Of a stretch of 64,000 nucleotides of DNA, positions 1-37,234 are shown in pieces; the stretch's first letter is position 1; each line of letters starts with the position of its first letter. This DNA is from an uncultured Cytophagales bacterium (GTDB taxonomy: Bacteria > Bacteroidota > Bacteroidia > Cytophagales > Bernardetiaceae), in contig CAVXHP010000006.1 in NCBI GenBank assembly GCA_963761725.1, positions 381,534 through 445,533 of the forward strand. The letters run 5' to 3'. A program made the translations under genes and the position numbers. The notes beneath the pieces are model-generated. The model saw only the letters and a list, made by a program, of their open reading frames with translations. It searched no databases and was not told the DNA's origin.

Positions 1-162
1 GTAAAACCAATTTTAAGTTCTTTTAAAGCCTTGAAAGATTGGAAAAGTAAGAGACAAGAATAAATTTTTACTCCTGTAACTCTTGTTACAAACTTCTAAA
101 ATAGAAAGGAGTAATTTTGTAGCATTCAATCTAGTTTCATAAAAATTTAAAAAGATACCACT

Positions 163-489
163 ATGTTAGATGCTCTCAAAAACGTATTCAAAAACTTATT
201 TAGCTCAAAACCACCAACAGACTACAAAACTCTTTTAAAAGAAGGAGCAATTATTATTGATGTTCGCTCAAAAGGCGAATATGCAAGTGGACACATTCAA
301 AAATCAAAAAATATTCCTTTAGATACTTTAGGGAATCAACTAACACAATTTAAAGATAAAGATCAAGTTATTATTACTTGTTGTGCTTCTGGAATGCGTA
401 GTGGAAGTGCTAAAAGCCTGTTACAGTCAAAAGGTTATACTAATGTTTATAATGGTGGTGGCTGGTCTAGCTTGAATAATAAGATTTAG
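163..489 (+). CDS. single-domain rhodanese-like sulfurtransferase
   Basis: 108-aa ORF with a rhodanese fold signature: IIDVRSKGEYASGHI, then the active-site loop CCASGMRSG with catalytic Cys. Confidence 0.8.
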   Translation: MLDALKNVFKNLFSSKPPTDYKTLLKEGAIIIDVRSKGEYASGHIQKSKNIPLDTLGNQLTQFKDKDQVIITCCASGMRSGSAKSLLQSKGYTNVYNGGGWSSLNNKI

Positions 490-550
490 CACAAAATATT
501 AAAAAAACAAAAATGGTATTTGAATTCTGAATTCAAATACCATTTTTTAA

Positions 551-1501
551 TTACTTCTCTTTTATCAAAATCTCTCCACTATCCGTAACTTCAATTATTC
601 CCTCTGGAATATCTGTCTTGTTTAGGTTTTGAATAATTGGAATTACTCTTTTCTGTTCATCAATCTTTACTCCTCCTCTTCCCAGTTGTATGATTGGCGT
701 AATCTGACCAGAAATAAACTTGCCTTCAGTATCAACTTTTATATTTACAATCGGTGCAAGTCCACTCACTCCACTCAAACTAAAACGGTCATAGGTACAA
801 AAATTACCCAAACTATAGGCAATGAATCTATCTTTATAGACTTCCATTGCACGAGTAACATGAGGTCCGTGTCCGAAAATAATGTCAGCACCCGCATCAA
901 TCATAGCGTGGGAAAAAGCATACACATTTCCTCTATTTTCTCCGTAAAAAGTCTCTGTCTTGCGTGTAATATGTTGCTTGCTTCTTCCTTCTGCTCCACC
1001 ATGAAAAGAAACAAGTACTACATCACAGGAATCATTTAATTTTCTGACAATTGCTTCGGCAGCCTTTATATCTCTAATATCCATTGTGCCAGAATTAGGT
1101 GCAAAGGCTGCAAAACCATATTTTACACCTTCTTTCTCAAAAATTGTATAAGGAGCAGTAGTAAGACCAGCAAACTCAATTCCTATACTTTTTAAGAATT
1201 TTTTGCTATTCTCTCTTCCTTCATTTCCAAAATCTCCCATATGATTATTGGCAATACTTACCACATCAAATCCTCCTTGCTTCAAAACATCTTCTACCAA
1301 TTTTTCAGGCATTCTAAAGGCATAACAAACAGAAGGGTCTGAACATTTTTTTACCTGTCCTCCTTTATCCAAAACCACACCTTCCAAATTACCAAAAGTA
1401 ATATCTGCACTCTTCAAAATTGAATCTACTTCTGAAATCAAATCCTTTCCATTATTAGGTGGCAAATGTGCAGCCGAAGGAAAGTTTGTTCCAAACATCA
1501 T
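551..1501 (-). CDS. CapA/PgsA-family protein (poly-gamma-glutamate synthesis / metallophosphatase-like)
   Basis: 316-aa ORF with CapA-like motifs (FGNLEGV..., SIANNHMGDFG, HGGAEG). No N-terminal signal peptide in this frame. Confidence 0.7.
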   Translation of the reverse strand: MMFGTNFPSAAHLPPNNGKDLISEVDSILKSADITFGNLEGVVLDKGGQVKKCSDPSVCYAFRMPEKLVEDVLKQGGFDVVSIANNHMGDFGNEGRENSKKFLKSIGIEFAGLTTAPYTIFEKEGVKYGFAAFAPNSGTMDIRDIKAAEAIVRKLNDSCDVVLVSFHGGAEGRSKQHITRKTETFYGENRGNVYAFSHAMIDAGADIIFGHGPHVTRAMEVYKDRFIAYSLGNFCTYDRFSLSGVSGLAPIVNIKVDTEGKFISGQITPIIQLGRGGVKIDEQKRVIPIIQNLNKTDIPEGIIEVTDSGEILIKEK

Positions 1502-1571
1502 ATCGCCTACTCCAATAATTTGAAGGTTTGTTTTCTTGTAGAATTATCTCAAGACAGATGAAAATGTAGTA

Positions 1572-1748
1572 TCATTTAATTTTAGTATTAGAGAATCTGC
1601 TAAATTTTGCTTTTAAGTCAGTAATTAAGGCTAAAGAATCAGTTGTCAGATTTTGTGTTGCTTTATAATCTGTCTGACTACAACTAAAGTGAGAAATACT
1701 AAAAGCAGGAAGAAAAACAAGAATAAAAAGTATTTTTTTGATTCGCAT
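1572..1748 (-). CDS. small ORF with lipoprotein-type signal peptide (possibly the detached N-terminus of capA)
   Basis: Hand-translated: MRIKKILFILVFLPAFSISHFSCSQTDYK... (58 aa). Hydrophobic leader plus Cys, immediately upstream of capA, which lacks a signal peptide. Confidence 0.25.
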   Translation of the reverse strand: MRIKKILFILVFLPAFSISHFSCSQTDYKATQNLTTDSLALITDLKAKFSRFSNTKIK

Positions 1749-2004
1749 AAGAAATAGGGAAATGTATAACTAGTTGTAATTAAATACAAAAAAAATAATT
1801 GATTTTGAAAAAACAATAAATGTTAATAAAAAGTTAATAAGAATTTAATTTGGTTATAAATTGCAAAAACGAATAAAATTTCGTATATTGTTTTTGTTAG
1901 TAATTTAACTAACAAGAAGTGAAAGTTTATTTTTGTAATACAGATTCTTAATTTACAATTATTTTCACTCATTTGTGCTTCAATTTTTCTAAAACACTAA
2001 TTCA

Positions 2005-2181
2005 ATGATTTTTATTGCCACAGAAGACCAGAAAGGAAAAATAACTGCATTTTTCGCAAAAAACAAAAAACAACTTAAAGAAAAAGGATTCAAATGGATT
2101 CGCAAGTTTGATGACGAACATCGTGCTATTCTTTGGGTAAACGAGAGTTACTTATTAAACAAAAAAGAATATTTGTATTAA
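2005..2181 (+). CDS. hypothetical small protein (58 aa)
   Basis: Hand-translated ORF MIFIATEDQKGKITAFFAKNKKQLKEKGFKWIRKFDDEHRAILWVNESYLLNKKEYLY. No recognisable family. Confidence 0.2.
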   Translation: MIFIATEDQKGKITAFFAKNKKQLKEKGFKWIRKFDDEHRAILWVNESYLLNKKEYLY

Positions 2182-2347
2182 CGATTAGTTATTAATTGTA
2201 AGTGATAAGTGAATTACACTGGTCAAGAATTGGTTCTAAAAAAGGCAGCTTGATAAATCAAGTTGTTACGTAATTTAAGCGTAGAAATTTGATTTATCAA
2301 ATTGACTGCGTCGTCTTTCAGTTCTAAAACTAATCACTAACCATTTA

Positions 2348-4447
2348 TCACTCATCACTATTTAGAAGGTCTTTTGCGATTATTTCCAGATACTCATGAT
2401 ACGGACTTAGTTTGGGAAGTGCATTCTTTATTTTCAGATACAATTGCTCTGCGTAGAGCTTGTCATTTTTTTCCATTGCTTGTGATAATTCTGTCAAATA
2501 TTTATCCATTATAGGCGATATTTCGGTTACGTTTCCTAAGAGACGAGCCAAAATTTCGCTAATTGTCCAAGCCCAAGGCATTCCTTCCAGTAGAAGAGGA
2601 TGAGTAATAATTCGCTCATCTTCCCATTCTAAAGCAAGAATATTATTTGAAGCCATAGACTGAATCATAAAAGGACTTTGCGTTCCTATTATAAATTGTG
2701 TATTTGGAAATATTTCTGAGAGACGAGGAATAAGAGTACGCTGCAAATTAGGACTTAAATGTACATCAATCTCATCAATCAACACAATCGCCTGTATGCT
2801 TTCTGGATGTTCCAAATCAAAGGGATGTTGAATGGCTCGTACACACAAATCCAATATCCAACTAAAAACAGTCTGAAAACCATCAGACATAACTGAAAGA
2901 AGAGCTTCTCCAGTAGAGGTCTGAAAGACAAAATCTCCATCTTTATTCAAACCCAAAAGTCCTTTTTCTAATTTTTCATCGTGTTTGTTTTCTGTGATTT
3001 CTTTGGAGGGTGCAAGCAGTCTATTAACTATTTTTCGGATAGTTTCTATATTATTTTCAATATAAGAATACGTGCTATGGTCATCTTCACTCTTCAAAAA
3101 ACCATTTTCTCCAAATAGAGATGCAATGGGAGCAAAAGTACGATGCTGAAAATCATAGTTTTTGAGTCCCTTTTTTCCTGTACTATAGCCTAAAATTAAT
3201 AAGTTTTCACGTATTATCTCAAAATAACGTTTATGACTTCCTGTATGCATGACACCATTTCTGTCAATCTTGAACTTTATATTTACTTCTTCTCCAAATC
3301 CTTGCAAACGTAGCACAAGGTGTCCTGCATCTTTATTTCCGTGTATAACATTTTCCCAGCCATAATTAATTGGAGGTTTGGGAATATTAGAAAGACCCAT
3401 AGCAATGAGTTGAAGAATGGTTGATTTGCCTGTTCCATTTGTTCCAACGATAAGCGTAACATTTTCTTTTGTATGGATATGAGGTAAATCAATGGATAGT
3501 TTGTCAAAACACCTGATGTTTTTGATAAACATGGATTCTAAAATAAGCGTATTATCTTCACTTACTTTGTGTTCTTCTGGAAAATCAATAGTTAGGAAAG
3601 GCGTAATAGTCTCAATAAAATGAACTTGAACTTGTTCTAAGACACGCATCACTTCAAAGTCTTCACAATCATCTACAAAAAAATACTCAAAATTAAACAC
3701 CATATTTTTTCCCAACATAGAATGTGGTGTTCGCTGTGCAGCCATTGCATTCAATTCTGTCAATGCAGTTTCAAAATACTTTTGTAATAATGGAAATGGA
3801 GTTGGATAAAGAACAGTCTCTTCTAAAAGTTGAGTAGCAGATTCATATAACTTTTGGGTAATCTGACGAATAATTCGATGACGTGCTACTGCCGACGAAC
3901 CCATATTTATTTTATAAGCTGTAATAGTAGAAGCTGCACGCAAATTTCTTTTTATAGGTTGAAAATTACCATCTCTATCAATAGCAAGATATTTTTCTGG
4001 AACATCCAATTCAGGATTAATAATAAGAGGTTCTTCTGCCAAATGAATATCTGAATCAGCACGCCAAAGCATTCTATTTTCTGGAGGAGACTTTACTCGT
4101 TTATGCTTGTTCATTATTGGAAACTGACTATCTTCATAAAGTTTGCATTCTTCACAAACAGGTAAAAGGTTTGTCCATTCATAGATAAGCCAATAATACA
4201 GTTCTGGCGACCTATAATGGGTCAGAAAGGCAGTCGATTCCTCAATAGAAATTCCTGCTTCACAAAAAGCACATTTATTATAATGGATTTCGAGAAGTTT
4301 GCCCAATACATCTTGGTGCATCAAAATATCCAAACGAGGATAACCCACAAACTTTCCTATCTCCAGAAGTGTCTGAATAATTTCTTCAGTTTCTGGAGAT
4401 TGTAAAATAGCTGGAATATCATTCGGATTTTTTCGTACTGAAATCAT
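2348..4447 (-). CDS. fusion protein: N-terminal HNH-like Cys-rich (zinc-finger nuclease-like) domain plus C-terminal AAA_21/ABC-type P-loop ATPase; candidate defence protein
   Basis: 699-aa ORF. N-terminal region has H-x3-CxxC (HYNKCAFCE) and N-x5-CxxC (NLLPVCEECK), as in HNH nucleases. Walker A is GTNGTGKST, Walker B is VLIDEIDVHLSP, and IIGTQSP is an H-loop like the TTHSP motif of AAA_21 ATPases. Confidence 0.6.
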   Translation of the reverse strand: MISVRKNPNDIPAILQSPETEEIIQTLLEIGKFVGYPRLDILMHQDVLGKLLEIHYNKCAFCEAGISIEESTAFLTHYRSPELYYWLIYEWTNLLPVCEECKLYEDSQFPIMNKHKRVKSPPENRMLWRADSDIHLAEEPLIINPELDVPEKYLAIDRDGNFQPIKRNLRAASTITAYKINMGSSAVARHRIIRQITQKLYESATQLLEETVLYPTPFPLLQKYFETALTELNAMAAQRTPHSMLGKNMVFNFEYFFVDDCEDFEVMRVLEQVQVHFIETITPFLTIDFPEEHKVSEDNTLILESMFIKNIRCFDKLSIDLPHIHTKENVTLIVGTNGTGKSTILQLIAMGLSNIPKPPINYGWENVIHGNKDAGHLVLRLQGFGEEVNIKFKIDRNGVMHTGSHKRYFEIIRENLLILGYSTGKKGLKNYDFQHRTFAPIASLFGENGFLKSEDDHSTYSYIENNIETIRKIVNRLLAPSKEITENKHDEKLEKGLLGLNKDGDFVFQTSTGEALLSVMSDGFQTVFSWILDLCVRAIQHPFDLEHPESIQAIVLIDEIDVHLSPNLQRTLIPRLSEIFPNTQFIIGTQSPFMIQSMASNNILALEWEDERIITHPLLLEGMPWAWTISEILARLLGNVTEISPIMDKYLTELSQAMEKNDKLYAEQLYLKIKNALPKLSPYHEYLEIIAKDLLNSDE

Positions 4448-4455
4448 AGATTCTA

Positions 4456-4497
4456 TGGTCTCTCAAACCCTTGGGGTTTTTGAAAACCCTAAGGGTT
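4456..4497 (-). terminator. hairpin downstream of gldC (putative intrinsic terminator)
   Basis: Imperfect inverted repeat aaacccttggggttttt / aaaaccctaagggttt between the gldC stop and the start of the next gene. Confidence 0.35.
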
Positions 4498-4504
4498 TAA
4501 AAGA

Positions 4505-4847
4505 TTACTGTTCTGTATTCTGCTGACTTTCCTTCAAATAAAGAGCTAATTTTTCGCAAAGCTGATGAATTTCTTGTGCCATATATTCATCATTGGTAGC
4601 TCGCATAAGTGTATCAGCCATTCCACCCAAAATATTTATACTAAACCCTTTCATTTCCTCAACAGGCATGTCTTTTGTCCAAAGGTCTAAACGCAAGACA
4701 GTTTTTTTCATGGCCGTCCCAAATTGCTAAGGCAATTGCTTTTGCTTCTTCAAGTTGATTTCCTGTATCAGATGCTTTCCAAAATATTTTTTCTGGAAGG
4801 TCTTTGTCATCTAATTCTATACTAAAACGGATTTCAGATTGTTTCAT
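4505..4847 (-). pseudogene. gldC: gliding motility protein GldC, split by a +1 frameshift in an A7/T7 run (possible sequencing error)
   Basis: ORFs 4659..4847 and 4505..4711 together match GldC (MKQSEIRFSIELDDKDLPEKIFW...AIWDGHEK // RLDLWTKDMPVEEMK...MRATNDEYMA). The frames join at the gaaaaaaac homopolymer near 4694-4702. Confidence 0.75.
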
Positions 4848-4966
4848 TTTTTTGATTTATAATTTCTGTATCGTAATTTTCTTTAATTAAAAGAGGAACA
4901 CAAATTTACGAAAAAAAACCACCTTATTCTATACTTGAAAATTGAATAAGGTACTATTCATTCAAC

Positions 4967-5200
4967 ATGAGTGTCATTGGTAAAAATCAAAAAATCCGTC
5001 TATTAGCTACAGAGTAGCTTTACCTTGGTAGAACAAGAATAGAAATTGATTTAAAAAGCTACAGCGTAGCGTAACTTTATTTTTAATTGCCAATTGTAAA
5101 GTTTCGCTACGCTGTAGCTCTATTAAAATAGTGTTTTTGATGTTCTACCAAGGTTACGTTGCTCTGCAACTAAAAGTCAATACCTAACAATGACACTCAT
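4967..5200. repeat. MITE-like palindromic repeat, family A, copy 1
   Basis: ~234-bp element with terminal inverted repeats (atgagtgtcattgg ... caatgacactcat) and an internal long palindrome (agctacagcgtagcgtaacttt...aaagtttcgctacgctgtagct). Near-identical copies at 18990..19233 (inverted) and 37002..37234. Confidence 0.8.
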
Positions 5201-5239
5201 ATTGATTCATTGGTTCTATATGACTTTAGTTGCAAACTA

Positions 5240-5345
5240 AATCTTGTATTTTGTTCAAGTCTGTACCGAAGGTCTAATTTGAACAAAATAAGCCTTTTTG
5301 AGCTTTAAATACACATTTCAAACTGATCAGACCTTGCGGTGCAGA
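5240..5345. repeat. hairpin repeat, family B, copy 1
   Basis: ~105-bp element with inverted arms gtctgtaccgaaggtct / cagaccttgcggtgcagac and ttgttcaag/cttgaacaa. Second copy in reverse at 57640..57760. Confidence 0.7.
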
Positions 5346-5457
5346 CCAATTTAAAATAGAGTATAGATACAATTAATTTTGCTTTGCTACTTACTCAATT
5401 AGTTAGGTATTTGTATTCATTTACCATTGATAATTTACCATTCATCATTCATCATTC

Positions 5458-7829
5458 CTATCTTCTGCTACCCGAATAGCTCATTGCTTCTCCTTTTCCA
5501 AAGGCGTAACTTACTCCAAAGGTTACAAAACGTCCACGCATTCCAAAATTATAGTTTTCGAAGGTAGGCTGATTTACAAAACTTTCTTGTATTCTTGATG
5601 CAAAAACATCTCTAATTCCTAAATTACCAACTACTTTTCCTTTAAGAAACTTCTTACGAATACCCAAATCCATAAAAGCAAAACCACTTTGTTTTCCTTG
5701 TACTGTTTCGAAGCTAGAACGGTAATTTCCAGCTATTTCAAAATCAATATCAGCAGGTAATTTTATTTTCGTGTCCAGACGAACAGACCATTGCGTTCCT
5801 GTAAAATCAAATTCTCGGCTTTCAAAAACTCCTCTTCGGTCAAAATACGTGTAATTAAAGTTACCATTAAAAGTAAGCCATTTAATAGGATTGTATTTTC
5901 CATTCGTTTCAAATCCAATAAGCGAATTTGTTCCAATATTTTGAGGTGTAGTAAAGGTAACATTATCTACAAAAGTAGAAACTCGTTCTACTACATCGGT
6001 CGTATATCTATGGTAAACACTAGAACTCATTGAAGCTTCTCCAAGTTCGTAGATACTTGTCAGTTCATAAGAGTCTGTAAATTCGGGTTGAAGGTCTGGG
6101 TTACCTGTACGAATATTAAAATTATTTCTGATATTAAAGAAAGGATTCAAATCCCACAATCTGGGTCTAAAAATACGTCTGGAGTATCCCGCTTGAAGTG
6201 CAAAATTTTCTGATGCTGTAAAGGAAGTATGTAAAGAAGGAAAAAGATTAGTAAAGTTTTGAGAATTAGATTCGTTTGTAGTTGTCAATTCTGTTTGAAG
6301 GTCTGTATTTTCTACACGCAAACCAGCTTTGATACCCCATATTTCAGTTTCAAAAGCTCCTGTTGCATACACTCCCAATACCTTCTGATTCCATTCAAAA
6401 TTATTGGTAAAATCCAAATTGCTTACATATTCTTATTTACAAAATCTTGTACTTCAAAATCATTTCCTACTCATTAATAACATACAATGCACCTGTTTCA
6501 AAAGTATATTTTTCTGTTATTGGATTGACATAATCTGCCTTAAAAGTATAATCTGTTTGGTCAAAAGTAGTAGCTGTAAGCTGATTACTATCTACATTTT
6601 CGCCTTCTAGTGTTCTATCAATAAAGACAGAAGAAAGGTCTTTTGCAAACGAACTTCCCAATGCACTTACTTGAAAAGTATGGTCTTCATTATTTTTGAA
6701 AGTTTTTGTCCAATTGAGTTCGTATTGCCATTTTGGGTTGGTAGCTTCTGTATCTTCATTACGCACCCACCTGGGAAATAGTATTATCATCTTCTAAAAA
6801 ACTAAAATTTGTTTCAGAAGGTTGGTCTTCTATTTCGTAGGCAAAGTTTCCTGAAAGTGTAAAGACATTGTACTCGTTTAGATGATAATCTGTACCTAAT
6901 CTGATATTGAAAAAGGTTTCGTTTCTAAACTCTTCTCCATCACTCAAAATAGTTTGTCCACTAATTAAATTTCGGTTGATGGCTTCTGTTTGTCTAGGTC
7001 TTGAGCGATGACCAATACCAAATTGAGTAAATAAATTAAACTTTTCAGTACGACGATTTATACTTCCTCCAAGACTATGATTAGCAGGAATACCTGTATT
7101 TGCAGAAATAGAACCATTCCAACCTTCCTTTGACTCCTTTTTAAGAACAATATTCAAAATTCCTGAGGTACCAGAAGCCTCATATTTTGCCGAAGGATTT
7201 GTAATTACTTCAATACTTTCAATCATATCTGCGGTAATAGTACCCAGTCCAGTACCACCATCTGTCAAGATAGAGGGTTTGCCATTGATAAGGATTTGTA
7301 CGCCAGCACTTCCACGCAAACTAATTTCTCCATCAATATTTACATTTACGGAAGGTACATTATTTAAAACTTCTAATGCACTAGCTCCCGTAGTGCTTAA
7401 GTCTTTTCCGACATTAAAAACACGTTTATCTAATTGAAAAGTGGTCTTGGAGACTTCTCCTTCTACTACTATTTGATCAAGCAGTTTCATATCTGGAGCA
7501 AGGGAAACAGTTCCCAAATTTACTTCATCACCTGAAATAGTAAATGCTGTTAGTGTCTTGGATTGATAACCCATAAAACTAATTTTTACATAAAAATTAG
7601 TTTGAGTAGTAGAGACAGAAAATGTTCCATCTTCGGCTGATATAACTCCTGTGATGAGTTCTTCTGTTCCTGTTTTGTAAAGTGCAACGGTAGCATAAGG
7701 AACAGGTTGAGCGGTTTCTTCTTCAACTAAATTGCCAAAGACTTCTATTTCTTGTTCTTGAGCAGTAGCAAAATTACTTCCTATAAAAAATAAGAATAAA
7801 CAAACTACGTGTAGTAAATAATTTTTCAT
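5458..7829 (-). pseudogene. TonB-dependent outer membrane receptor (CarboxypepD_reg-like N-domain plus plug plus barrel), split into three ORFs by two frameshifts
   Basis: ORF 6759..7829 carries a signal peptide, a carboxypeptidase-regulatory-like domain and plug motifs (ISLRGS...). ORFs 6467..6790 and 5458..6417 continue the beta-barrel. Frame changes at ~6760-6790 and ~6417-6467. Confidence 0.7.
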
Positions 7830-8148
7830 ATTTTTTTTTGATTTGTTGTTTTTTTCTAAACTTTGTGCTTCAAGAGTTGTTCTGATTTTCGTTTTTTTTA
7901 TGACTATGTCTTTCTATATAAACATTAGACACAAAGGAAAAGGAAAAGTTTAATGGACATTTTGCAAAAAACCTTAAAATATATAGTATATCAATTTTGA
8001 ACACAATAGGATTAAATAAAACTTTTCTTTGGAAATGCTGTTTTTGATATTTCAACCTTCAAAATAAAGAAAGGTAATCATCAGTAATGAGTTTTTTGAA
8101 AGAAAACTAACAACTCATACTATTTTTTCAACTATATAATTACACAAA

Positions 8149-9032
8149 ATGGCATCAGGATTTTTTGCTCTCTTCAACGATATTGCAGTACTTATGGACG
8201 ATGTGGCTGTAATGAGTAAACTTGCCACCAAAAAAACGGCAGGACTTTTAGCAGATGATTTGGCAGTAAATGCCGAGAAAGCATCGGGATTTGTTTCGAC
8301 TAGAGAACTTCCTATTTTATGGAGAATAACAAAAGGTTCTTTGCTCAATAAATTAATTATTTTGCCTGTTTTATTTCTTTTGAGTGCTTACTTTCCCGTT
8401 GCCATTGTCCCAATTTTACTGGTAGGAGGAGTTTATTTAGCGTATGAAGGTGCTGCAAAAATATATGAAACTCTTTTTGATAAGAAAGACAAAACTAAAG
8501 CAGGTATAGATAGCAAGAAAATGAGTGCAGCCGAGATAAAAGAGTATGAAGATGAAAAAATAAAATCAGCTATTATTGTAGATTTTATTCTGTCCGTAGA
8601 AATTGTAATTATCACTTTGAGTACCGTCATGAATAGTGATATTACTACACAAATTATAGTAGTAACCATAGTGGCTTTATAGCGACTGTATTTGTTTATG
8701 GACTTGTGGCTTTGCTTGTCAGAATGGACGATTTGGGATATAATCTGATAGCCAGAAACGACGAAGAGGATAGCACTTCGGATAAAATTGGACAGGCTTT
8801 AGTAAATACATTACCTTATTTAGTTAGAGGTTTAGGGATTTTGGGAACGGTAGCCATGATTTTGGTGGCAGGAGGAATATTTGTTCATAACATTGAATAT
8901 GTACATCATCTTGTAGAAGATTTCCCTGTTCCTACTATTCTTATTGAGTTTGTTGTCGGACTGATTGTTGGATTTTTGGCTTTGCCTATTGTAAAAGGAA
9001 TTATGAAGATTGTAGGCAAAAAAAACGAATAA
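8149..9032 (+). pseudogene. DUF808 (YedI-like) inner-membrane protein, split by a frameshift at a T-run near 8680
   Basis: ORFs 8149..8682 and 8706..9032 together resemble the ~290-aa DUF808 family (MASGFFALFNDIAVLMDDVAVMSK...). The frames merge at gtggctttatagcg (likely ttt vs tttt). Confidence 0.6.
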
Positions 9033-9821
9033 ATGGCACAAGATTATGACAAGATATTCAAAGAAAATATAGAGGAAATTATTCTTCCATTAGCTAAAAA
9101 ATTACTGAATATCGACCCAGAAGGACTTGAAGAAATCAAAGATGATTTACAATATACGATTGAACGTAAACCAGATTTTTTGAAAAAGGTAATTCATAAA
9201 GATTCTACAAAAGACTATATTCTGCATATTGAATTTCAAGTAAAAGACGAACCAGAAATGATTTATCGAATGCTTGAATATTATGCACTTTTACTTAGAG
9301 ACCATAAAATAAAACTAAAACAATACGTATTCTATATTGGAGAGGGAAAATCTAAAATGCCTATTTCGATAAAGCATGAAAAACTAGATTTCTCTTTTGA
9401 GGTAATTAGTATGCAATTAATAGATTATCACAAATTCTTGGATTCCTCAAAACCAGAAGAAGTCATTTTAGCAATATTAGCTGACTTTGGCAAAGAGGAA
9501 ACTCAAACTGCCATTACAACGATTGTAAAAAAGATAATGCAAATTACAGAACCAAACCTACAACAATCAAAATACGTTAGACAATTAGAAATACTATCTA
9601 GATTACGAGAACTACAAGAACAAATTATAAAATCTTTAGAAATTATGGCACTAACTTATGATATCAGAGGCGATATTCGCTTCAAGCAAGGCAAACAAGA
9701 AACACTGGTTGAAAATATAAAAGGTTTGATTTCTATTGAACTTTCTTTTGAGAAAATCGCAAAGGCATTGAATGTTTCGATAGATTTTATTGAAGAAGTT
9801 GCTAAATCTATGAAAAAGTAA
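9033..9821 (+). CDS. Rpn/YhgA-like PD-(D/E)XK nuclease family protein (putative transposase_31 family)
   Basis: 262-aa ORF with the characteristic LHIEFQ motif followed by MIYRMLEYYALLL, typical of the Rpn recombination-promoting nuclease / YhgA family. Confidence 0.6.
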   Translation: MAQDYDKIFKENIEEIILPLAKKLLNIDPEGLEEIKDDLQYTIERKPDFLKKVIHKDSTKDYILHIEFQVKDEPEMIYRMLEYYALLLRDHKIKLKQYVFYIGEGKSKMPISIKHEKLDFSFEVISMQLIDYHKFLDSSKPEEVILAILADFGKEETQTAITTIVKKIMQITEPNLQQSKYVRQLEILSRLRELQEQIIKSLEIMALTYDIRGDIRFKQGKQETLVENIKGLISIELSFEKIAKALNVSIDFIEEVAKSMKK

Positions 9822-9955
9822 ATAGAGTTTATTATATATCAATTTTCCTCTAATTCAATTTCTAATTTCTAAATCTAAATAAATTAGGCTACTTTCGTTA
9901 CTTAATTGTTTTGGTAAAAAAATATAAGAAATTCGTTTAAAAATTTAATTGAATT

Positions 9956-11242
9956 ATGGATTATTTGAGAGGATTGTTAGGAATGTTAGTTTTGCTAAGC
10001 GTGGCGTATGCATTTTCTAGCAATCGAAAAATGATAAATTGGAAACTGGTCGGAATAGGAATTCTTTTACAAATGGTTTTTGGAGTTCTGATTACTCAAG
10101 TTCCTTTTGTAGCAAGTGTATTTCAATCTGTAAGTGAAGGGTTTGTAAAATTTTTGAGTTTTTCTAACGATGGAGCAAAATTTTTGTTTAGTGATTTGGC
10201 TGATGTTCCTAAGGCTGGTTTTATATTCGCTTTTCAAGTTTTGCCTACTGTTATCTTCTTTTCTGCCGTAACAACAGGATTATATTATTTAGGCATTCTT
10301 CAAAAATTATCCTACGGAATTGCGTGGTTAATGGCAAAAACGATGGGATTATCGGGAGCAGAAAGCCTTTCAGCAGCAGGAAATATATTTTTAGGACAAA
10401 CAGAAGCACCTTTATTAGTTCGTCCTTTTATTGCCAAAATGACTACTTCCGAACTCATGTGTTTGATGACTGGAGGAATGGCAACTATTGCAGGAGCAGT
10501 TTTGGGAAGTTATGTTGCTTTTTTGGGAGGAGATGACCCTGTAAAACAAGCTGAAGTAGCTGCACGACTTTTAAGTGCATCGATTATGAATGCACCAGCA
10601 GGAATTGTTTTTGCCAAAATGCTTATTCCAGAAACCAAACCAGAACTTATAGATTCAGAATTAAAGGTAAATAAAGAAACACTGGGTGCAAATGTAATTG
10701 ATGCCTTAGCGATTGGTGCAGGTGATGGACTAAAATTAGCTCTCAATATTGGTGCAATGCTTTTAGCTTTTATTGCTGTTATTGCACTTCTTAATTACAT
10801 GTTGGAAGTAGTAGGAGATTGGACAACCTTAAACGCAATTATTGCAGAGAGTACCAACGGGATTTTTAATAAACTTTCGATGGAATATCTATTTGGACAG
10901 GTTTTTCGTTTGGCGGCTTTTGTAATTGGTGTAGAATGGGCTGATACATTACAGGTAGGAAGTCTTTTGGGACAAAAAACGGTTATTAATGAATTTGTAG
11001 CGTATGTAAGTTTGGCTGATATGCAAGCCAATAATGTAATTTCGCCTAAATCAATAACCATTGCTACCTTCGCTCTTTGTGGTTTTTCTAATTTTAGCTC
11101 TATTGCTATTCAAATTGGAGGAATTGGAGCAATGGCACCCAATCAACAAGCCAATTTGTCTCGTTTGGGACTAAAAGCTCTCTTAGCTGCAACGCTTGCT
11201 TGTATGATGACCGCTACGATTGCAGGAGCTTTACTTTCATAA
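9956..11242 (+). CDS. nupC: NupC/CNT-family concentrative nucleoside transporter
   Basis: 428-aa polytopic membrane protein with CNT-family conserved regions (GILQKLSYGIAWLMAKTMGLSGAESLSAAGNIFLGQTEAPLLVRPFI). Confidence 0.8.
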   Translation: MDYLRGLLGMLVLLSVAYAFSSNRKMINWKLVGIGILLQMVFGVLITQVPFVASVFQSVSEGFVKFLSFSNDGAKFLFSDLADVPKAGFIFAFQVLPTVIFFSAVTTGLYYLGILQKLSYGIAWLMAKTMGLSGAESLSAAGNIFLGQTEAPLLVRPFIAKMTTSELMCLMTGGMATIAGAVLGSYVAFLGGDDPVKQAEVAARLLSASIMNAPAGIVFAKMLIPETKPELIDSELKVNKETLGANVIDALAIGAGDGLKLALNIGAMLLAFIAVIALLNYMLEVVGDWTTLNAIIAESTNGIFNKLSMEYLFGQVFRLAAFVIGVEWADTLQVGSLLGQKTVINEFVAYVSLADMQANNVISPKSITIATFALCGFSNFSSIAIQIGGIGAMAPNQQANLSRLGLKALLAATLACMMTATIAGALLS

Positions 11243-11327
11243 GATTTTAGTTTTAGAATTAACATAAAAAAGGTTCAAACATTGCTGTTTGAACCTTTTT
11301 TGATATACATTAATCCATAAAATCTAA

Positions 11328-13112
11328 TTAATCACAATCATACACATATTGTGTAGTGCTTGTCGTGGTTGTTCCTGCTGCAATGATTGTAGCAACACTT
11401 GTACGCAATAATCCTTTTGCATCAATCGTATTATTTACTTCACCTTGACTTACACCATTTCCGTCCGTAACGACTGTTTTGAGAAGTTGACAATCTTTGT
11501 AAGTATTTACTTGCCTTTGAGTAAGAACGTCACTTGCATCAAAAGTTTCTACCAGTTTTGGGAAACTTCCTGTTGTATTTAGGAAATCAGAAGAAACTGT
11601 ATAGCCTGTTAATGCACCTGCTGGCGTATAAGAATCTGAACGAGTCAAACGTTTGTTTGTGTCATATGTATTGATTACATATGATGTTAGAGTTCCTGTT
11701 GCATCAAAATTATTTACTCTTACAGTACGATCTCCATTACTATACACATACTCAGCAGAACCTGTTGGGGTAGAACCGAATTTGGTTTCATCTTTTATTC
11801 TTCTTCCTTGTGCATCATATTGAATAGAAATAACTACGTTGCCAAAACCAGTTGCAGTAGTAATTGAGGAGAGATTTTTGACTCCATTCACAACCGTATA
11901 AGCATATGTTACAGTTATAGTTCCTGCTGCTGTTACTGATGTAGTTTTGGTTACATAACAATCAGGTAAATTACAAGGATTTCCTCCTCCTCCTGTTCCA
12001 GATGCAGCTTTTACAGTTACTTTCTTTGTTATTTCATTTGTTCCTACCGAATTTGTAACTACTAATTTTACATCAAAATCACCTGCTGCCGTAAAAGTAA
12101 ATTTTGGATTTTCCGCTGTTGAGCTAAAACTAGTCCCTGCTGCAGACCATTGATAAGAAGTTGCGTTTGTGCTTGTGTTTGTAAACGTTACTTCTTGTCC
12201 TGTTTCTGGACTAGCTGGAGAAAAACTAAATGCTGCAACAGGAGCTACTTGTGCAGCTTTTACAGTTACTTTTTTAGTTATTTCATTTGTTCCTACCGAA
12301 TTTGTAACTACTAATTTTACATCAAAATCACCTGCTGCCGTAAAGGTAAATTTTGGATTTTCTACTGTTGAGTTAAAACTGGTTCCTGCTGCTGACCATT
12401 GATAAGAAGTTGCATTTGTACTTGTATTTGTGAAAGTTACTTCTTGTCCTGTCTCTGGACTGGCTGGAGAAAAACTAAATGCCGCAACAGGAGCTACTTG
12501 TGCAGCCTTTACAGTTACTTTTTTAGTTATTTCATTTGTTCCTACCGAATTTGTAACTACTAATTTTACATCAAAATCACCTGCTGCCGTAAAAGTAAAT
12601 TTTGGATTTTCTACTGTTGAGCTAAAACTGGTTCCTGCTGCTGACCATTGATAAGAAGTTGCATTTGTGCTTGTGCTTGTAAATGTTACTTCTTGTCCTG
12701 TCTCTGGACTGGCTGGAGAAAAACTAAATGCTGCAACAGGTGCAGGTGGTGGTGGTGTATCTGCTGGAGCAACGCTAATTTGTTTGGTAACTGTCGTACT
12801 TCCACCTTCTCCTGTAGCTACTAATTTTATATCAAAAGTACCTACAGTAGTAAAAGTAAATGTTGGATTTTTTTCAGTAGAGTTGAAATTTGTTCCTGAC
12901 CAAACAAAAGAAGTTGCATTAGTACTTGTGTTAGTAAACGTAACAGCTTCGTTTACTTTCGGACTAACAGGAGTAAAAGAAAAATCTGCCGTTGGTGCTT
13001 TTGGTTTTTCCTCTTCTTCTTTTTCATCAGAACAGCTTGCTGCCACAAAGGAGAGCAAAACAAAAAAAAGGAAGACATTTTTTAATGTGTTTAGAAAGTG
13101 ATATGATTTCAT
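11328..13112 (-). CDS. secreted lipoprotein with four PKD-like domains (three near-identical tandem copies) and a C-terminal YD-repeat-like region
   Basis: Lipoprotein signal (LLSFVAASCSDE). An 83-aa unit (VAAFSFSPASPETGQEVTFTNTSTNATSYQWS...VTVKAAQVAP) repeats 3x almost identically. C-terminus has YD-like motifs (IQYDAQGRRI, YDTNKRLTRSDSY). Confidence 0.75.
   Translation of the reverse strand: MKSYHFLNTLKNVFLFFVLLSFVAASCSDEKEEEEKPKAPTADFSFTPVSPKVNEAVTFTNTSTNATSFVWSGTNFNSTEKNPTFTFTTVGTFDIKLVATGEGGSTTVTKQISVAPADTPPPPAPVAAFSFSPASPETGQEVTFTSTSTNATSYQWSAAGTSFSSTVENPKFTFTAAGDFDVKLVVTNSVGTNEITKKVTVKAAQVAPVAAFSFSPASPETGQEVTFTNTSTNATSYQWSAAGTSFNSTVENPKFTFTAAGDFDVKLVVTNSVGTNEITKKVTVKAAQVAPVAAFSFSPASPETGQEVTFTNTSTNATSYQWSAAGTSFSSTAENPKFTFTAAGDFDVKLVVTNSVGTNEITKKVTVKAASGTGGGGNPCNLPDCYVTKTTSVTAAGTITVTYAYTVVNGVKNLSSITTATGFGNVVISIQYDAQGRRIKDETKFGSTPTGSAEYVYSNGDRTVRVNNFDATGTLTSYVINTYDTNKRLTRSDSYTPAGALTGYTVSSDFLNTTGSFPKLVETFDASDVLTQRQVNTYKDCQLLKTVVTDGNGVSQGEVNNTIDAKGLLRTSVATIIAAGTTTTSTTQYVYDCD
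11990..12740. repeat. 3 x 249-bp near-identical tandem DNA repeat (PKD-domain units) inside CDS 11328..13112
   Basis: Antisense ORFs 12169.., 12430.. and 12667.. translate almost identically. Recurring landmarks are offset by 249 nt. Confidence 0.8.
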
Positions 13113-18989: not shown

Positions 18990-19233
18990 ATGAGTGTCAT
19001 TTTTGAGTACTTGATTTTCAGTTGTAGAGCAACGTAACCTTTGTAGAACATCAAAAACGAGCTTTATCAGAGCTACAGAGTAGCGAAACCTTGTAACCTA
19101 TATGAAATTAGAATTAAAAATAAGGTTCCGCTACTCTGTAGCTTTTTAAATTAATTTTCTATTCTAATCTACAAAGGTTATGCTACTCTGTAGCTAAAAA
19201 ATGCCTATTTTGATTTTTATCAATGCCAATATT
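18990..19233. repeat. MITE-like palindromic repeat, family A, copy 2 (inverted orientation)
   Basis: Reverse complement aligns along its length with copies at 4967..5200 and 37002..37234 (gctacagagtagc..., ttctaccaaggttacgttgctct...). Confidence 0.8.
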
Positions 19234-37001: not shown

Positions 37002-37234
37002 ATGAGTGTCATTGGCAAAAATCAAAATAGGCATTTATTAGCTACAGAGTAGCTTTACCTTGGTAGAACAAAAGTAAAATTAATTTGAAAAGCTACAGCG
37101 TAGCGTAACTTTATTTTTAATTGCCAATTGCAAGGTTTCGCTGCTCTGTAGCTCTATTAAAGTACGTTTTTGATGTTCTACCAAGGTTACGTTGCGGCTA
37201 CAACTAAAAGTCAATATCTGAAAATAACATTCAT
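37002..37234. repeat. MITE-like palindromic repeat, family A, copy 3
   Basis: atgagtgtcattggcaaaaatcaaaataggcatttattagctacagagtagc...aaagtcaatatctgaaaataacattcat. Aligns with copies 1 and 2. Confidence 0.8.

What the first reader, a model, noticed from the sequence alone, without database searches (positions are those of the whole stretch)
2348..4447. Orphan 699-aa HNH-like/AAA_21 ATPase fusion protein between capA and gldC: candidate single-gene defence system
The protein joins a Cys-rich HNH-like N-terminal module (HYNKCAFCE ... NLLPVCEECK) to a complete AAA_21/ABC-type ATPase (Walker A GTNGTGKST, Walker B LIDEIDVHLSP, H-loop IIGTQSP). HNH nuclease plus AAA_15/21 ATPase is the component set of Septu (PtuA ATPase plus PtuB HNH). 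It also resembles OLD/Gabija/PARIS-type ATPase-nuclease systems. Here the two parts are fused in one polypeptide, in nuclease-then-ATPase order. The gene is monocistronic. It has its own hairpin (4456..4497) separating it from gldC. Downstream are two ttgat(a/t)(a/t)atcaa palindromes (2247..2300). The locus is wedged between housekeeping genes and next to MITE-rich DNA, as expected of a defence islet.
Basis: partly seen in the sequence, partly recalled or inferred. Interest (0 to 1): 0.72.

Follow-up and report, generated by a model that had tools for sequence, protein, structure and literature searches.

The report
Partner-less Septu ATPase with nuclease-like head
This intact 699-residue gene is a relative of the Septu anti-phage system in which a copy of the nuclease subunit is built onto the front of the ATPase subunit, but unlike its relatives it has lost the separate working nuclease and has altered catalytic sites, so it is an unusual variant of a known system rather than a new one.

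Summary
The ORF (2348..4447, minus strand, 699 aa) and the quoted motifs are real. Residues 1-282 are a complete PtuB-like module (B'): HNH domain plus helical C-terminal domain. Residues 300-699 are a PtuA ABC ATPase. Profiles, solved structures and two AlphaFold models agree.

The fusion is not rare: 97 of the 150 best cluster representatives share the nuclease-then-ATPase order, and PADLOC's long PtuA1 models already cover it.

In all 8 fused loci examined outside the window's clade, a separate canonical PtuB gene follows. In the window's Bernardetiaceae-centred clade none does (5 lineages with enough downstream sequence).

That clade has also lost two positions invariant in 46 stand-alone PtuBs (Glu before the His; Asn after the second CxxC) and has Gln at the ATPase H-loop His. 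H77, N93 and Cys4 remain in the window protein.

The gene is under strong purifying selection (dN/dS about 0.06) and lies among housekeeping genes. It sits directly downstream of gldC in three diverged lineages, so "orphan, monocistronic" is unproven.

Best reading: a partner-less, remodelled Septu derivative. Its nuclease activity and defence role are uncertain.

The parts
2348..4447 (-). Intact CDS of 699 aa: a 'long PtuA' (B'-A) protein, made of a PtuB-like module, a linker and a PtuA ABC ATPase
   Evidence: ORF. PADLOC PtuA1 PDLC00292 at 7.5e-57 covers residues 1-612. AF2 model pLDDT 79.5. dN/dS 0.057 against the L001 orthologue.
3908..4447 (-). Residues 1-180: PtuB-like HNH (beta-beta-alpha-metal) domain with a Cys4 zinc knuckle (C59, C62, C98, C101), His77 and Asn93. 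It lacks the acidic residue before the His (Thr76) and the Asn after the second CxxC (Lys102).
   Evidence: PADLOC PtuB1 7.5e-36, NCBIfam PtuB 3.2e-8, TIGR02646 6.5e-5. H77 aligns to the EHF His of solved PtuB. Column counts against 46 stand-alone PtuBs. Foldseek top 9 hits are PtuB chains.
3602..3907 (-). Residues 181-282: helical C-terminal domain of the PtuB-like module. In solved complexes this part of PtuB binds the PtuA C-terminal domains.
   Evidence: Helices 183-210, 218-235, 243-258 and 264-278 in model m3491799d465e, pLDDT 90.5. Foldseek alignments span whole PtuB chains, TM 0.54-0.66 normalised to the target. PtuB CTD role from PMC12673091.
3557..3601 (-). Residues 283-297: disordered inter-module linker
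   Evidence: pLDDT below 50 at 283-286 and 288-297 in the full-length model.
2351..3556 (-). Residues 298-699: PtuA-type ABC ATPase with a C-terminal helical domain
   Evidence: Pfam AAA_21 2.9e-15 and AAA_15 3.7e-12. PDB sequence hits to PtuA of Septu and of retrons Ec78/Ec83, 1.5e-19 to 6e-15. Foldseek top 50 hits are all PtuA chains.
3419..3445 (-). Walker A, GTNGTGKST (335-343, Lys341)
   Evidence: G335, G340 and K341 are invariant in alignment A1.
2765..2782 (-). Walker B, LIDEID (556-561). It is followed by VHLSP instead of the canonical LHLHP.
2672..2683 (-). H-loop position, TQSP (589-592). Gln590 replaces the His that is conserved in all stand-alone PtuAs and in fused proteins outside the clade.
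   Evidence: Alignment against 26 PtuA-type ORFs, 23 from two-gene loci and 3 ATPase-only. Gln is seen only in the 7 nearest 50% clusters.
4459..4504 (-). Strong stem-loop between the gldC stop codon and the gene's ATG. It has no U-tract. It may be a partial terminator, an attenuator or an RNA-stability element.
   Evidence: -29.1 kcal/mol, z -5.6. Unique in the window. Hairpins of different sequence occupy the same junction in L001 (z -2.6) and L004 (z -3.6).
2237..2309 (-). Stem-loop (arms TTGATAAATCAA / TTGATTTATCAA with a CAGC/GCTG extension) followed by U6: a terminator-like element 3' of the gene
   Evidence: z -2.9; 1 of 200 shuffles as stable.
4505..4847 (-). gldC directly upstream on the same strand, broken by a 1-nt frameshift in this window. 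The same gldC-then-gene adjacency is found in three diverged lineages.
   Evidence: Adjacency in L001, L004 and L005/L006.

Best explanation
Identity (shown). The gene encodes a 'long PtuA' of the Septu lineage. It has a full PtuB-like module (B': HNH domain plus helical CTD, residues 1-282), a flexible linker, and a PtuA ABC ATPase (residues 300-699). In the wider family this long PtuA is the first gene of a two-gene Septu and is followed by a separate, fully canonical PtuB.

What is special here (shown). The window's gene belongs to a small Bernardetiaceae-centred clade that has lost the separate PtuB and has remodelled both active sites. In B' the acidic residue before the catalytic His and the Asn after the second CxxC are gone, while His77, Asn93 and the Cys4 zinc site remain. 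In the ATPase the Walker A, Walker B and signature motifs remain, but the H-loop His is Gln.

Mechanism (inferred by homology with solved PtuAB complexes). Two chains engage head-to-head through their ATPase domains around ATP. The Gln H-loop makes hydrolysis slow, so nucleotide occupancy acts as a switch. B' cannot dissociate as PtuB does in Septu or retron I-A, so it would be held or released by conformational change. When a phage cue or a fall in ATP relaxes the dimer, B' engages nucleic acid (DNA or tRNA), causing growth arrest.

I take a self-contained, chemically attenuated, single-chain Septu-type defence as the most likely function. Whether B' still cleaves is not established.

Expression is probably by read-through from gldC across a hairpin, which would keep levels low.
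For: Homology:
- PADLOC PtuA1 7.5e-57 and PtuB1 7.5e-36.
- NCBIfam PtuA and PtuB hits, both below the equivalog cut-offs.
- PDB sequence hits to PtuA and weak hits to PtuB that align H77 and N93.
- AF2 models with pLDDT 79.5 and 90.5.
- Foldseek: whole protein matches PtuA chains at 1e-17 to 1e-13. Residues 1-290 match 9 PtuB chains at probability 1.0, then only weak Cas9 hits.

Family size: 97 of the 150 best 50%-identity cluster representatives have the B-A order.

Partner pattern: a stand-alone PtuB lies directly downstream in L008, L009, L046, L048, L054, L056, L079 and L080. None is present in the window, L001, L002, L004, L005 or L007.

Active sites:
- Stand-alone PtuB: Glu/His/Asn/Cys4/Asn are invariant (n=46).
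- Window clade: 0 of 13 acidic before the His, 12 of 13 His, 13 of 13 Asn, 0 of 13 Asn at the third position.
- The H-loop Gln occurs only in the clade.

The gene is functional: dN/dS is 0.057 overall (B' 0.081, ATPase 0.038), equal to capA (0.062) and rhodanese (0.079).

Mechanistic precedents:
- PtuA Walker motifs and PtuB His/Asn are essential in Septu EcB88 (PMC13096335).
- The PtuB H57 and Zn-finger Cys residues are essential in Eco7 (PMC12673091).
- A PtuA dimer binds PtuB through the C-terminal domains, and ATP regulates the nuclease (PMC12065111; PMC12819146).
Against: - Both canonical metal-ligand positions of the HNH site are missing in every clade member.
- Several clade members have gone further: P0006 has His changed to Tyr, and P0009, P0010, P0021 and P0022 have three of the four zinc Cys replaced. 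Nuclease catalysis by B' is therefore not the feature conserved across the clade.
- B' is often catalytically dead in relatives that keep a real PtuB. His is present in only 53 of 94. This suggests B' was a non-catalytic scaffold before the partner was lost.
- The context is housekeeping, there are no PADLOC hits nearby, and no phage carriage was found.
- Housekeeping-like evolutionary rates and stable synteny are atypical for a defence gene.
- No experiment exists for any long PtuA without PtuB, and I found no paper describing this architecture.
- The ATP-switch and tethered-effector steps are inference only.
Confidence: 0.45

Rival explanations
1. Domesticated derivative. After the real nuclease was lost, the protein was retained for a non-defence role as an ATP-dependent nucleic-acid-binding or scaffolding protein with a nuclease-dead B'. 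It is co-expressed with gldC and may be functionally coupled to it.
For: - gldC lies directly upstream on the same strand in three diverged lineages: window/L001, L004 and L005/6. The L005 gap is 5 bp. All other neighbours differ.
- GldC identity between these lineages is only 52%, no higher than to Cytophagales that lack the gene.
- dN/dS and amino-acid identity equal those of the housekeeping neighbours.
- The remodelling of both catalytic sites is consistent across the clade, not random decay.
- Half of the clade's lineages have additionally lost the His or the zinc site.
- The context is housekeeping and no viral contig carries a relative.
Against: - Hugenholtzia (L002; its gldC is on another contig, L044), L007 and L045 carry the gene without gldC.
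- GldC is widespread without this gene, so any coupling is not obligatory.
- Adjacency within one family can be inherited synteny.
- L004 and L005 have a DNA methyltransferase or XisH/XisI downstream, which suggests a variable region.
- No known housekeeping role exists for any PtuA relative.
Confidence: 0.27
2. A sensor/regulator half of a split system. The long PtuA still works with a PtuB, or another effector, encoded elsewhere in the genome.
For: - In 8 of 8 related fused loci a canonical PtuB is required by layout.
- The PtuA C-terminal domain that binds PtuB is retained.
- B' lacks the canonical metal ligands.
Against: - No other PtuA- or PtuB-like ORF exists anywhere in the 64-kb window or in the flanks of five clade lineages.
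- Septu partners are otherwise always adjacent and usually overlap.
- The remodelled H-loop suggests a changed mode of action rather than simple relocation of the partner.
Confidence: 0.13
3. One reading: a new single-gene defence system made by fusing a fully active HNH nuclease to a complete AAA_21 ATPase, sitting as an orphan monocistronic gene in a defence islet.
For: - The domain pair is that of Septu.
- H77, N93 and Cys4 are present.
- There is a terminator-like element 3' of the gene and a hairpin 5' of it.
Against: - The architecture is common and already modelled in PADLOC.
- The order is B-A with a further B downstream in relatives, so it is not a fusion of the two operon genes.
- The HNH metal-ligand positions and the ATPase H-loop His are missing.
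- There is no defence island.
- The gene is syntenic and gldC-linked in relatives.
Confidence: 0.08
4. A decaying relic of a Septu system, on its way to becoming a pseudogene, in a genome region rich in frame disruptions.
For: - The partner has been lost and the catalytic positions are degenerate.
- Neighbouring capA, gldC, the TonB-dependent receptor and DUF808 are all split by frame disruptions in this window.
Against: - The 2.1-kb ORF is intact.
- dN/dS is 0.06 on both halves.
- The full-length protein is conserved from 34% to 89% identity, with invariant Walker A/B and core residues.
Confidence: 0.04

Closest known systems
Septu with a 'long PtuA' ([PtuB-like-PtuA] + PtuB). Detected by PADLOC as PtuA1 (models PDLC00292, 00288 and 00291, 726-773 positions) plus PtuB1. 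Examples: Gluconobacter oxydans plasmid NZ_MZ127818 and Bacillus mycoides plasmid NZ_CP036038.
   Same: - Same single-chain order: PtuB-like module, linker, PtuA ATPase. Same length class (about 690 aa).
- Alignable from residue 1 to about 650.
- B' is also frequently non-canonical there.
   Different: - Those loci always have an overlapping downstream stand-alone PtuB with invariant EH...N...CxxCN (8 of 8). The window clade has none.
- They keep the H-loop His and DxHLHP. The window clade has Gln and has lost the second His.
- They occur on plasmids and next to R-M genes. The window gene is chromosomal, among housekeeping genes and gldC-linked.
Canonical two-gene Septu (E. coli PtuAB; PDB 8EE4, 8EE7, 8EEA; Septu EcB88)
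   Same: - The ATPase half is homologous and structurally superposable on PtuA.
- The N-terminal half is superposable on PtuB, including its CTD.
- The His-to-Asn spacing of 16 residues matches the solved TIGR02646-type PtuB chain 22bv_F and the H75/N91 spacing reported for Septu EcB88.
   Different: - One polypeptide instead of two, with the nuclease-like part N-terminal although the operon order is ptuA then ptuB.
- The nuclease module cannot be released.
- The acidic residue before the His is absent.
- The H-loop His is Gln.
- NCBIfam PtuA/PtuB equivalog scores are far below the cut-offs: 119 against 500, and 34 against 150.
Retron type I-A effectors (Ec78/Eco7, Ec83 PtuAB)
   Same: They give the best sequence and fold matches in the PDB for both halves. 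They also have a Cys4 zinc finger in PtuB (PMC12673091).
   Different: - No reverse transcriptase gene nearby and no Rfam RNA family in the neighbourhood.
- The retron-specific PtuA elements (N-terminal extension binding RT, msDNA-binding flap; PMC12819146) are replaced here by the B' module.
OLD, Gabija GajA and PARIS AriA (ABC ATPase with a Toprim nuclease)
   Same: An ABC-type ATPase of the AAA_15/AAA_21 kind controlling a nuclease. GajA and OLD are also single-chain ATPase-nuclease proteins.
   Different: The nuclease there is Toprim and C-terminal. No Toprim match was found here, and all the best PADLOC hits are PtuA/PtuB.

Membership tests
Septu (PtuA + PtuB) | PtuA: ABC-type ATPase (AAA_15/AAA_21) homologous to PtuA | tested here: met
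   Pfam AAA_21 2.9e-15 and AAA_15 3.7e-12. More than 20 PADLOC PtuA1 models, best 7.5e-57. PDB PtuA chains by sequence and by fold.
Septu (PtuA + PtuB) | A separate PtuB HNH nuclease gene adjacent to ptuA (two-gene operon) | tested here: not met
   No second PtuA/PtuB-like ORF in the 64-kb window, nor in the flanks of clade loci L001, L002, L004, L005 and L007.
Septu (PtuA + PtuB) | PtuB fold (HNH beta-beta-alpha-metal domain plus helical CTD) present in the system | tested here: met
   Residues 1-263 match PADLOC PtuB1 at 7.5e-36. The AF2 model of 1-290 has pLDDT 90.5. The Foldseek top 9 hits are PtuB chains at probability 1.0, TM 0.54-0.66 normalised to the target.
Septu (PtuA + PtuB) | Canonical PtuB catalytic constellation: (E/D)-His, Asn, Cys4, and Asn after the second CxxC. 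All are invariant in 46 stand-alone PtuBs. His and Asn are experimentally essential. | tested here: inconclusive
   His77, Asn93 and Cys59/62/98/101 are present. Thr76 replaces Glu and Lys102 replaces Asn. Essentiality of the His and Asn comes from PMC13096335 and PMC12673091. E. coli-type PtuBs also lack the CxxCN spacing, so loss of activity cannot be concluded from sequence.
Septu (PtuA + PtuB) | Intact ABC ATPase motif set, including the H-loop His | tested here: not met
   Walker A, the signature-like MSDGF and Walker B are present. The H-loop position is Gln590 and DxHLHP is DVHLSP. All 26 PtuA-type ORFs in the alignment (23 from two-gene loci, 3 ATPase-only) and the non-clade fused proteins keep His.
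Septu (PtuA + PtuB) | NCBIfam equivalog thresholds for PtuA (NF041760) and PtuB (NF041761) | tested here: not met
   119.3 bits against a cut-off of 500, and 33.7 bits against a cut-off of 150. TIGR02646 gives 23 against 52. These models are built on the retron-type proteins.
Septu (PtuA + PtuB) | Protection against phage | not testable with these tools
   Needs a phage challenge of a host expressing the gene.
Long-PtuA Septu subtype ([B'-A] + [B]) | Single chain with an N-terminal PtuB-like module and a C-terminal PtuA | tested here: met
   Both HMMs hit in B-then-A order. 97 of 150 representatives share this order.
Long-PtuA Septu subtype ([B'-A] + [B]) | A stand-alone canonical PtuB immediately downstream | tested here: not met
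   Present in 8 of 8 non-clade loci (L008, L009, L046, L048, L054, L056, L079, L080). Absent in the window, where the gene is followed by a terminator-like hairpin and a convergent 58-aa ORF.
Retron type I-A | A reverse transcriptase and msr/msd ncRNA next to ptuAB | tested here: not met
   The neighbours are rhodanese, CapA, GldC, a TonB-dependent receptor, DUF808 and a nucleoside transporter. No Rfam family is found in 1-12000.
OLD / Gabija GajA / PARIS AriA | A Toprim nuclease domain linked to the ABC ATPase | tested here: not met
   No Toprim family among the Pfam hits at E<=1. The C-terminal region matches the PtuA CTD.

The most novel reading that the evidence does not exclude
A Septu-derived ATPase with a pseudo-nuclease head has been domesticated in Bernardetiaceae and is functionally coupled to GldC, the small gliding-motility-associated protein of unknown mechanism. 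On this reading the pair is a conserved two-gene unit. Either GldC took over a partner or regulator role after the real PtuB was lost, or the protein now serves a housekeeping role tied to gliding or cell-surface biology.
Probability: 0.1. Interest if true: 0.7.

Novelty: new variant of a known kind. Interest (0 to 1): 0.4.

Why it matters
This work makes three points that I did not find in the papers I could search.

1. The N-terminal ~280 residues of the widespread 'long PtuA' are a paralogue of the PtuB nuclease itself, and this copy has often lost the catalytic His. Such Septu systems would then carry a pseudo-nuclease next to the real one. That bears on how PtuA holds and releases PtuB.

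2. A small clade has discarded the real nuclease yet keeps the long PtuA under strong purifying selection, with coordinated changes in both active sites. It is a natural test of whether a tethered, non-releasable PtuB-like module can act alone, or whether defence ATPases can be repurposed.

3. Annotation pipelines that require both PtuA and PtuB are likely to miss, or only half-call, such genes (inference; neither PADLOC's system caller nor DefenseFinder was run).

None of this overturns current views of Septu. It is a modest extension, not a new kind of system.

Tried and rejected
- Pfam alone gave no HNH hit, so nuclease homology had to come from PtuB-specific profiles and from fold.
- The PDB sequence search with residues 1-289 gave only marginal PtuB hits (E 0.12-0.5). 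These were useful for residue alignment, not as proof. Proof came from the separate N-terminal model.
- The first genome scan with alignment A1 failed for lack of conserved stretches. They are not exhaustive and did not return the Bernardetia genomes themselves.
- The profile re-search of the protein collection added almost nothing.
- P0001 could not be located by exact look-up, so the source assembly is not named.
- Li et al. 2024, the Septu structure paper, is not held. Its content is cited only through later papers.
- Six literature searches and follow-up reading of hits found no description of a fused or long PtuA. This is absence in the held library, not proof of absence.
- Rejected: OLD/Gabija/PARIS membership (no Toprim).
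- Rejected: retron effector (no RT or ncRNA).
- Rejected: a read-through fusion of ptuA-ptuB (wrong order, and a PtuB still follows in relatives).
- Rejected: an assembly artefact (the same order is found in 97 clusters).
- Rejected: phage-borne (no viral contig).
- The sigma-70 promoter scan was uninformative: 14 sites against 17 expected. It does not model Bacteroidota promoters.
- I could not inspect model coordinates, so the geometry around His77 and any compensating acidic residues (Glu99, Glu100, Asp106) remains untested.
Full report
OBSERVATION

Every quoted motif is at the stated place. Orthologues start with the same MISV(R/K) residues, which supports the start codon.

On the gene's strand the order is: TonB-dependent receptor (split into three ORFs), a MITE-like element, gldC, a hairpin, the 699-aa gene, a terminator-like stem-loop, then a convergent 58-aa ORF, an AT-rich spacer, capA and rhodanese.

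The hairpin between gldC and the gene is strong (-29.1 kcal/mol, z -5.6) but has no U-tract. The two 'palindromes' downstream are the two arms of a single stem-loop, which is followed by U6 on the gene's strand.

WHAT THE PROTEIN IS

Pfam sees only the ATPase: AAA_21 at 2.9e-15 and AAA_15 at 3.7e-12, with no HNH family at E<=1.

PADLOC profiles give a much clearer answer.
- PtuA1 model PDLC00292 (726 positions) aligns to residues 1-612 at 7.5e-57.
- PtuB1 model PDLC00316 aligns to residues 1-263 at 7.5e-36.

NCBIfam's retron-type PtuA and PtuB models and TIGR02646 also hit, but far below their equivalog cut-offs.

By sequence, the ATPase half matches solved PtuA chains of E. coli Septu and of retrons Ec78/Ec83. 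The N-terminal half aligns weakly to solved PtuB. His77 falls on the His of the EHF motif; one deposited chain carries Ala there. Asn93 falls on the W.NLF Asn.

Two AlphaFold2 models were made.
- The full-length model has mean pLDDT 79.5, with a disordered linker at 283-297. Foldseek against the PDB returned only PtuA chains in the top 50.
- The model of residues 1-290 has pLDDT 90.5 and pTM 0.85. Its nine best hits are PtuB chains at probability 1.0, with TM 0.54-0.66 normalised to the target. The alignments cover the HNH domain and the helical C-terminal domain. Only weak Cas9 hits follow.

Residues 1-282 are therefore a whole PtuB-like module (here called B'), and residues 300-699 are a PtuA.

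THE FUSION IS COMMON AND IS NOT A FUSION OF THE TWO OPERON GENES

An exhaustive phmmer search of 1.84 billion cluster representatives gave 13,600 hits at E<=1e-3. I classified the best 150 with HMMs built from stand-alone PtuA and PtuB ORFs.

| Architecture | Count | Length |
|---|---|---|
| B-A | 97 | 585-941 aa, median 691 |
| A-B | 2 | 606-670 aa |
| A only | 45 | 129-1237 aa |
| B only | 6 | 196-297 aa |

In canonical two-gene Septu loci fetched from genomes and metagenomes the order is ptuA then ptuB. The window protein's C-terminal half matches the upstream gene and its N-terminal half matches the downstream gene.

Every fused gene outside the window's own clade is itself followed by a second, stand-alone PtuB with fully canonical motifs. 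This holds in eight loci:
- L008, L009, L046 and L048
- L054 and L056
- two annotated plasmids, where the fused gene is named 'AAA family ATPase' and, in Gluconobacter, the downstream gene is named 'retron system putative HNH endonuclease'

These downstream proteins are PADLOC PtuB1. A stand-alone PtuB also matches the first ~212 positions of the long PtuA1 model. The layout [B'-A]+[B] is therefore an existing Septu subtype at the level of detection tools. I found no paper that describes the N-terminal domain as a PtuB paralogue.

WHAT IS SPECIAL ABOUT THE WINDOW'S CLADE

The closest relatives are 34-89% identical. They come from Bernardetia sp., Hugenholtzia roseola, a Bernardetiaceae MAG, a Bacteroidota MAG and metagenomes. 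They differ from the rest of the family in three linked ways.

1. None has a downstream PtuB. This holds for the window, L001, L002, L004, L005/6 and L007. L045 is too short to judge. Counting lineages, that is 0 of 5 against 8 of 8.

2. The B' active site is remodelled. Alignment to a stand-alone-PtuB HMM gives:

| Position | Stand-alone PtuB (n=46) | Fused B' outside the clade (n=94) | Window clade (n=13) |
|---|---|---|---|
| Acidic residue before the His | 46 (45 Glu, 1 Asp) | 53 | 0 (Thr/Ala/Gly/Met) |
| Catalytic His | 46 | 53 | 12 (Tyr in P0006) |
| Asn | 46 | 91 | 13 |
| Asn after the second CxxC | 46 | 42 | 0 |
| Four zinc Cys | all invariant | mostly kept (C2-C4 in 86-89 of 94) | three of the four replaced in 4 of 13 |

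The window protein itself keeps His77, Asn93 and all four Cys.

3. The ATPase is remodelled. The canonical motifs are DE(I/L)DLHLHP and QFI.STHSP. In all clade members they read DEIDVHLSP and QFIIGTQSP. The H-loop Gln occurs only in the seven nearest clusters.

Walker A, the signature-like MSDGF and Walker B are intact.

IS IT FUNCTIONAL?

Against the Bernardetia sp. orthologue (86% identity), dN/dS is 0.057. It is 0.081 for B' and 0.038 for the ATPase. This is indistinguishable from capA (0.062) and rhodanese (0.079). dS is about 1.5 and near saturation, so the values are rough, but purifying selection on both halves is clear. The gene is not a relic.

CONTEXT

The neighbours within about 16 kb are housekeeping genes and have no PADLOC hits. 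There is no Rfam family in the first 12 kb, no relative in viral contigs, and no other PtuA/PtuB-like ORF in the 64-kb window.

The same gldC / gene / 58-aa ORF / capA / rhodanese order is found in Bernardetia sp..

Unexpectedly, gldC lies immediately upstream on the same strand in two much more distant members as well: L004 (37% identity, 93-bp gap) and L005/6 (34-35% identity, 5-bp gap). All other neighbours differ there.

This gldC is the ordinary, widely conserved GldC. Between these lineages it is only 52% identical, no closer than to Cytophagales whose gldC is followed by other genes.

Hugenholtzia, L007 and L045 carry the gene without gldC.

Where the gldC-gene gap exceeds 50 bp there is always a hairpin, but of unrelated sequence.

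The simplest reading is an ancestral placement downstream of gldC with expression by read-through. A functional link to GldC is possible but not shown. 'Monocistronic' is therefore unproven, and 'defence islet' is weakly supported at best. Downstream content does vary between lineages: a methyltransferase in L004 and XisH/XisI in L005.

MECHANISM

Shown:
- Homology of both halves to PtuB and PtuA.
- Retention of the ATP-binding motifs.
- Loss of the partner gene.
- The altered catalytic positions.
- Purifying selection.

Taken from the literature:
- PtuA dimers engage head-to-head around nucleotide and hold one PtuB between their C-terminal domains. ATP binding or hydrolysis regulates the nuclease (PMC12065111; PMC12819146; PMC12673091).
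- The PtuA Walker residues and the PtuB His, Asn and zinc Cys are needed for defence.
- Activated PtuAB nicks DNA in vitro and leads to tRNA-Tyr cleavage in cells.

Inferred:
- The window protein dimerises through its ATPase.
- The Gln H-loop slows hydrolysis, by analogy with H-loop substitutions in other ABC ATPases (my own knowledge), so nucleotide occupancy acts as a switch.
- B' is covalently tethered, so it is controlled by conformation rather than by release.

Whether B' cuts is open. His, Asn and zinc are present, but both canonical metal-ligand positions are absent. Acidic residues inside the second CxxC (CEEC) might substitute for them; I could not test this.

I rank the readings as follows:

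| Reading | Confidence |
|---|---|
| Self-contained, attenuated, single-chain Septu-type defence | 0.45 |
| Domesticated non-nuclease role, possibly gldC-linked | 0.27 |
| Dependence on an effector encoded elsewhere | 0.13 |
| Decaying relic | 0.04 |

COMPARISON AND NOVELTY

The protein works like, and descends from, Septu. It fails membership of canonical Septu on three tested features: a separate PtuB, an intact H-loop, and the NCBIfam equivalog scores. It fails the long-PtuA subtype on one: the downstream PtuB. It is not an OLD/Gabija/PARIS protein (no Toprim) and not a retron effector (no RT or ncRNA).

I class it as a new variant of a known kind. A specialist would find two things moderately interesting: that B' is a PtuB paralogue and often a pseudo-nuclease, and that a partner-less, conserved clade exists. 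Neither is startling. Interest 0.4.

Noticed in passing
window 4505-4847 (-): gldC is split into two overlapping ORFs (4505-4711 and 4659-4847) by a 1-nt insertion, relative to the intact 114-aa orthologue in Bernardetia sp. It is either a pseudogene or an assembly indel.
   Followed up: partly
window 551-1748, 5458-7829, 8149-9032: Three more neighbouring genes are broken. capA is split into a 58-aa signal-peptide piece and a 316-aa piece, against 397 aa in L001. The TonB-dependent receptor is in three ORFs. DUF808 is in two (177 + 108 aa against a 302-position profile). With gldC this makes about five frame disruptions in about 5 kb of coding sequence, while the 2.1-kb Septu-like ORF is intact. 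This could be long-read indel error or real gene decay.
   Followed up: no
window 4946-5221; also about 19072-19194 and 37041-37152: A MITE-like nested palindromic element: outer arms of 37 nt and inner arms of 80 nt, carrying GCTACAG(C/A)GTAGC motifs. It sits between the TonB-dependent receptor and gldC. Related copies occur at two other places in the window: 9 motif matches against 0 expected.
   Followed up: partly
window 2005-2181 (+): A 58-aa ORF convergent with the gene is conserved in Bernardetia sp. (L001 4479-4655) but in no other fetched locus. It has no Pfam or PADLOC hit.
   Followed up: partly
L008, L009, L046, L048, L054, L056, L079, L080: In 'long PtuA' Septu loci the N-terminal PtuB-like copy often lacks the catalytic His (for example DQ in Gluconobacter and DK in L008), while the downstream PtuB is fully canonical. 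This suggests a pseudo-nuclease domain paired with the real nuclease.
   Followed up: yes
L016 5887-10638 (Roseivirga MAG): Two complete ptuA-ptuB pairs lie in tandem: 5887-7038/7035-7916 and 8037-9755/9652-10638.
   Followed up: no
L053 2-3877 and L073 2147-5251 (metagenome contigs): Very long ORFs (about 1290 and 1035 aa) carry the PtuA ATPase at their C-terminal end, behind large N-terminal regions that matched neither HMM. Each is followed by a PtuB-like ORF. These are further domain fusions in the family.
   Followed up: no
L010, L011 (Candidatus Parabeggiatoa), L012 (Microscillaceae): ATPase-only relatives (430-577 aa) whose ATPase is closest to the window clade (GKSTLLQLIALGL Walker A region) but which keep the H-loop His. 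Their N-terminal regions were not PtuB-like by HMM.
   Followed up: no
window 1500-2250: A very AT-rich spacer (GC 0.23-0.24) lies between capA and the 58-aa ORF. It contains only short, low-complexity ORFs.
   Followed up: no
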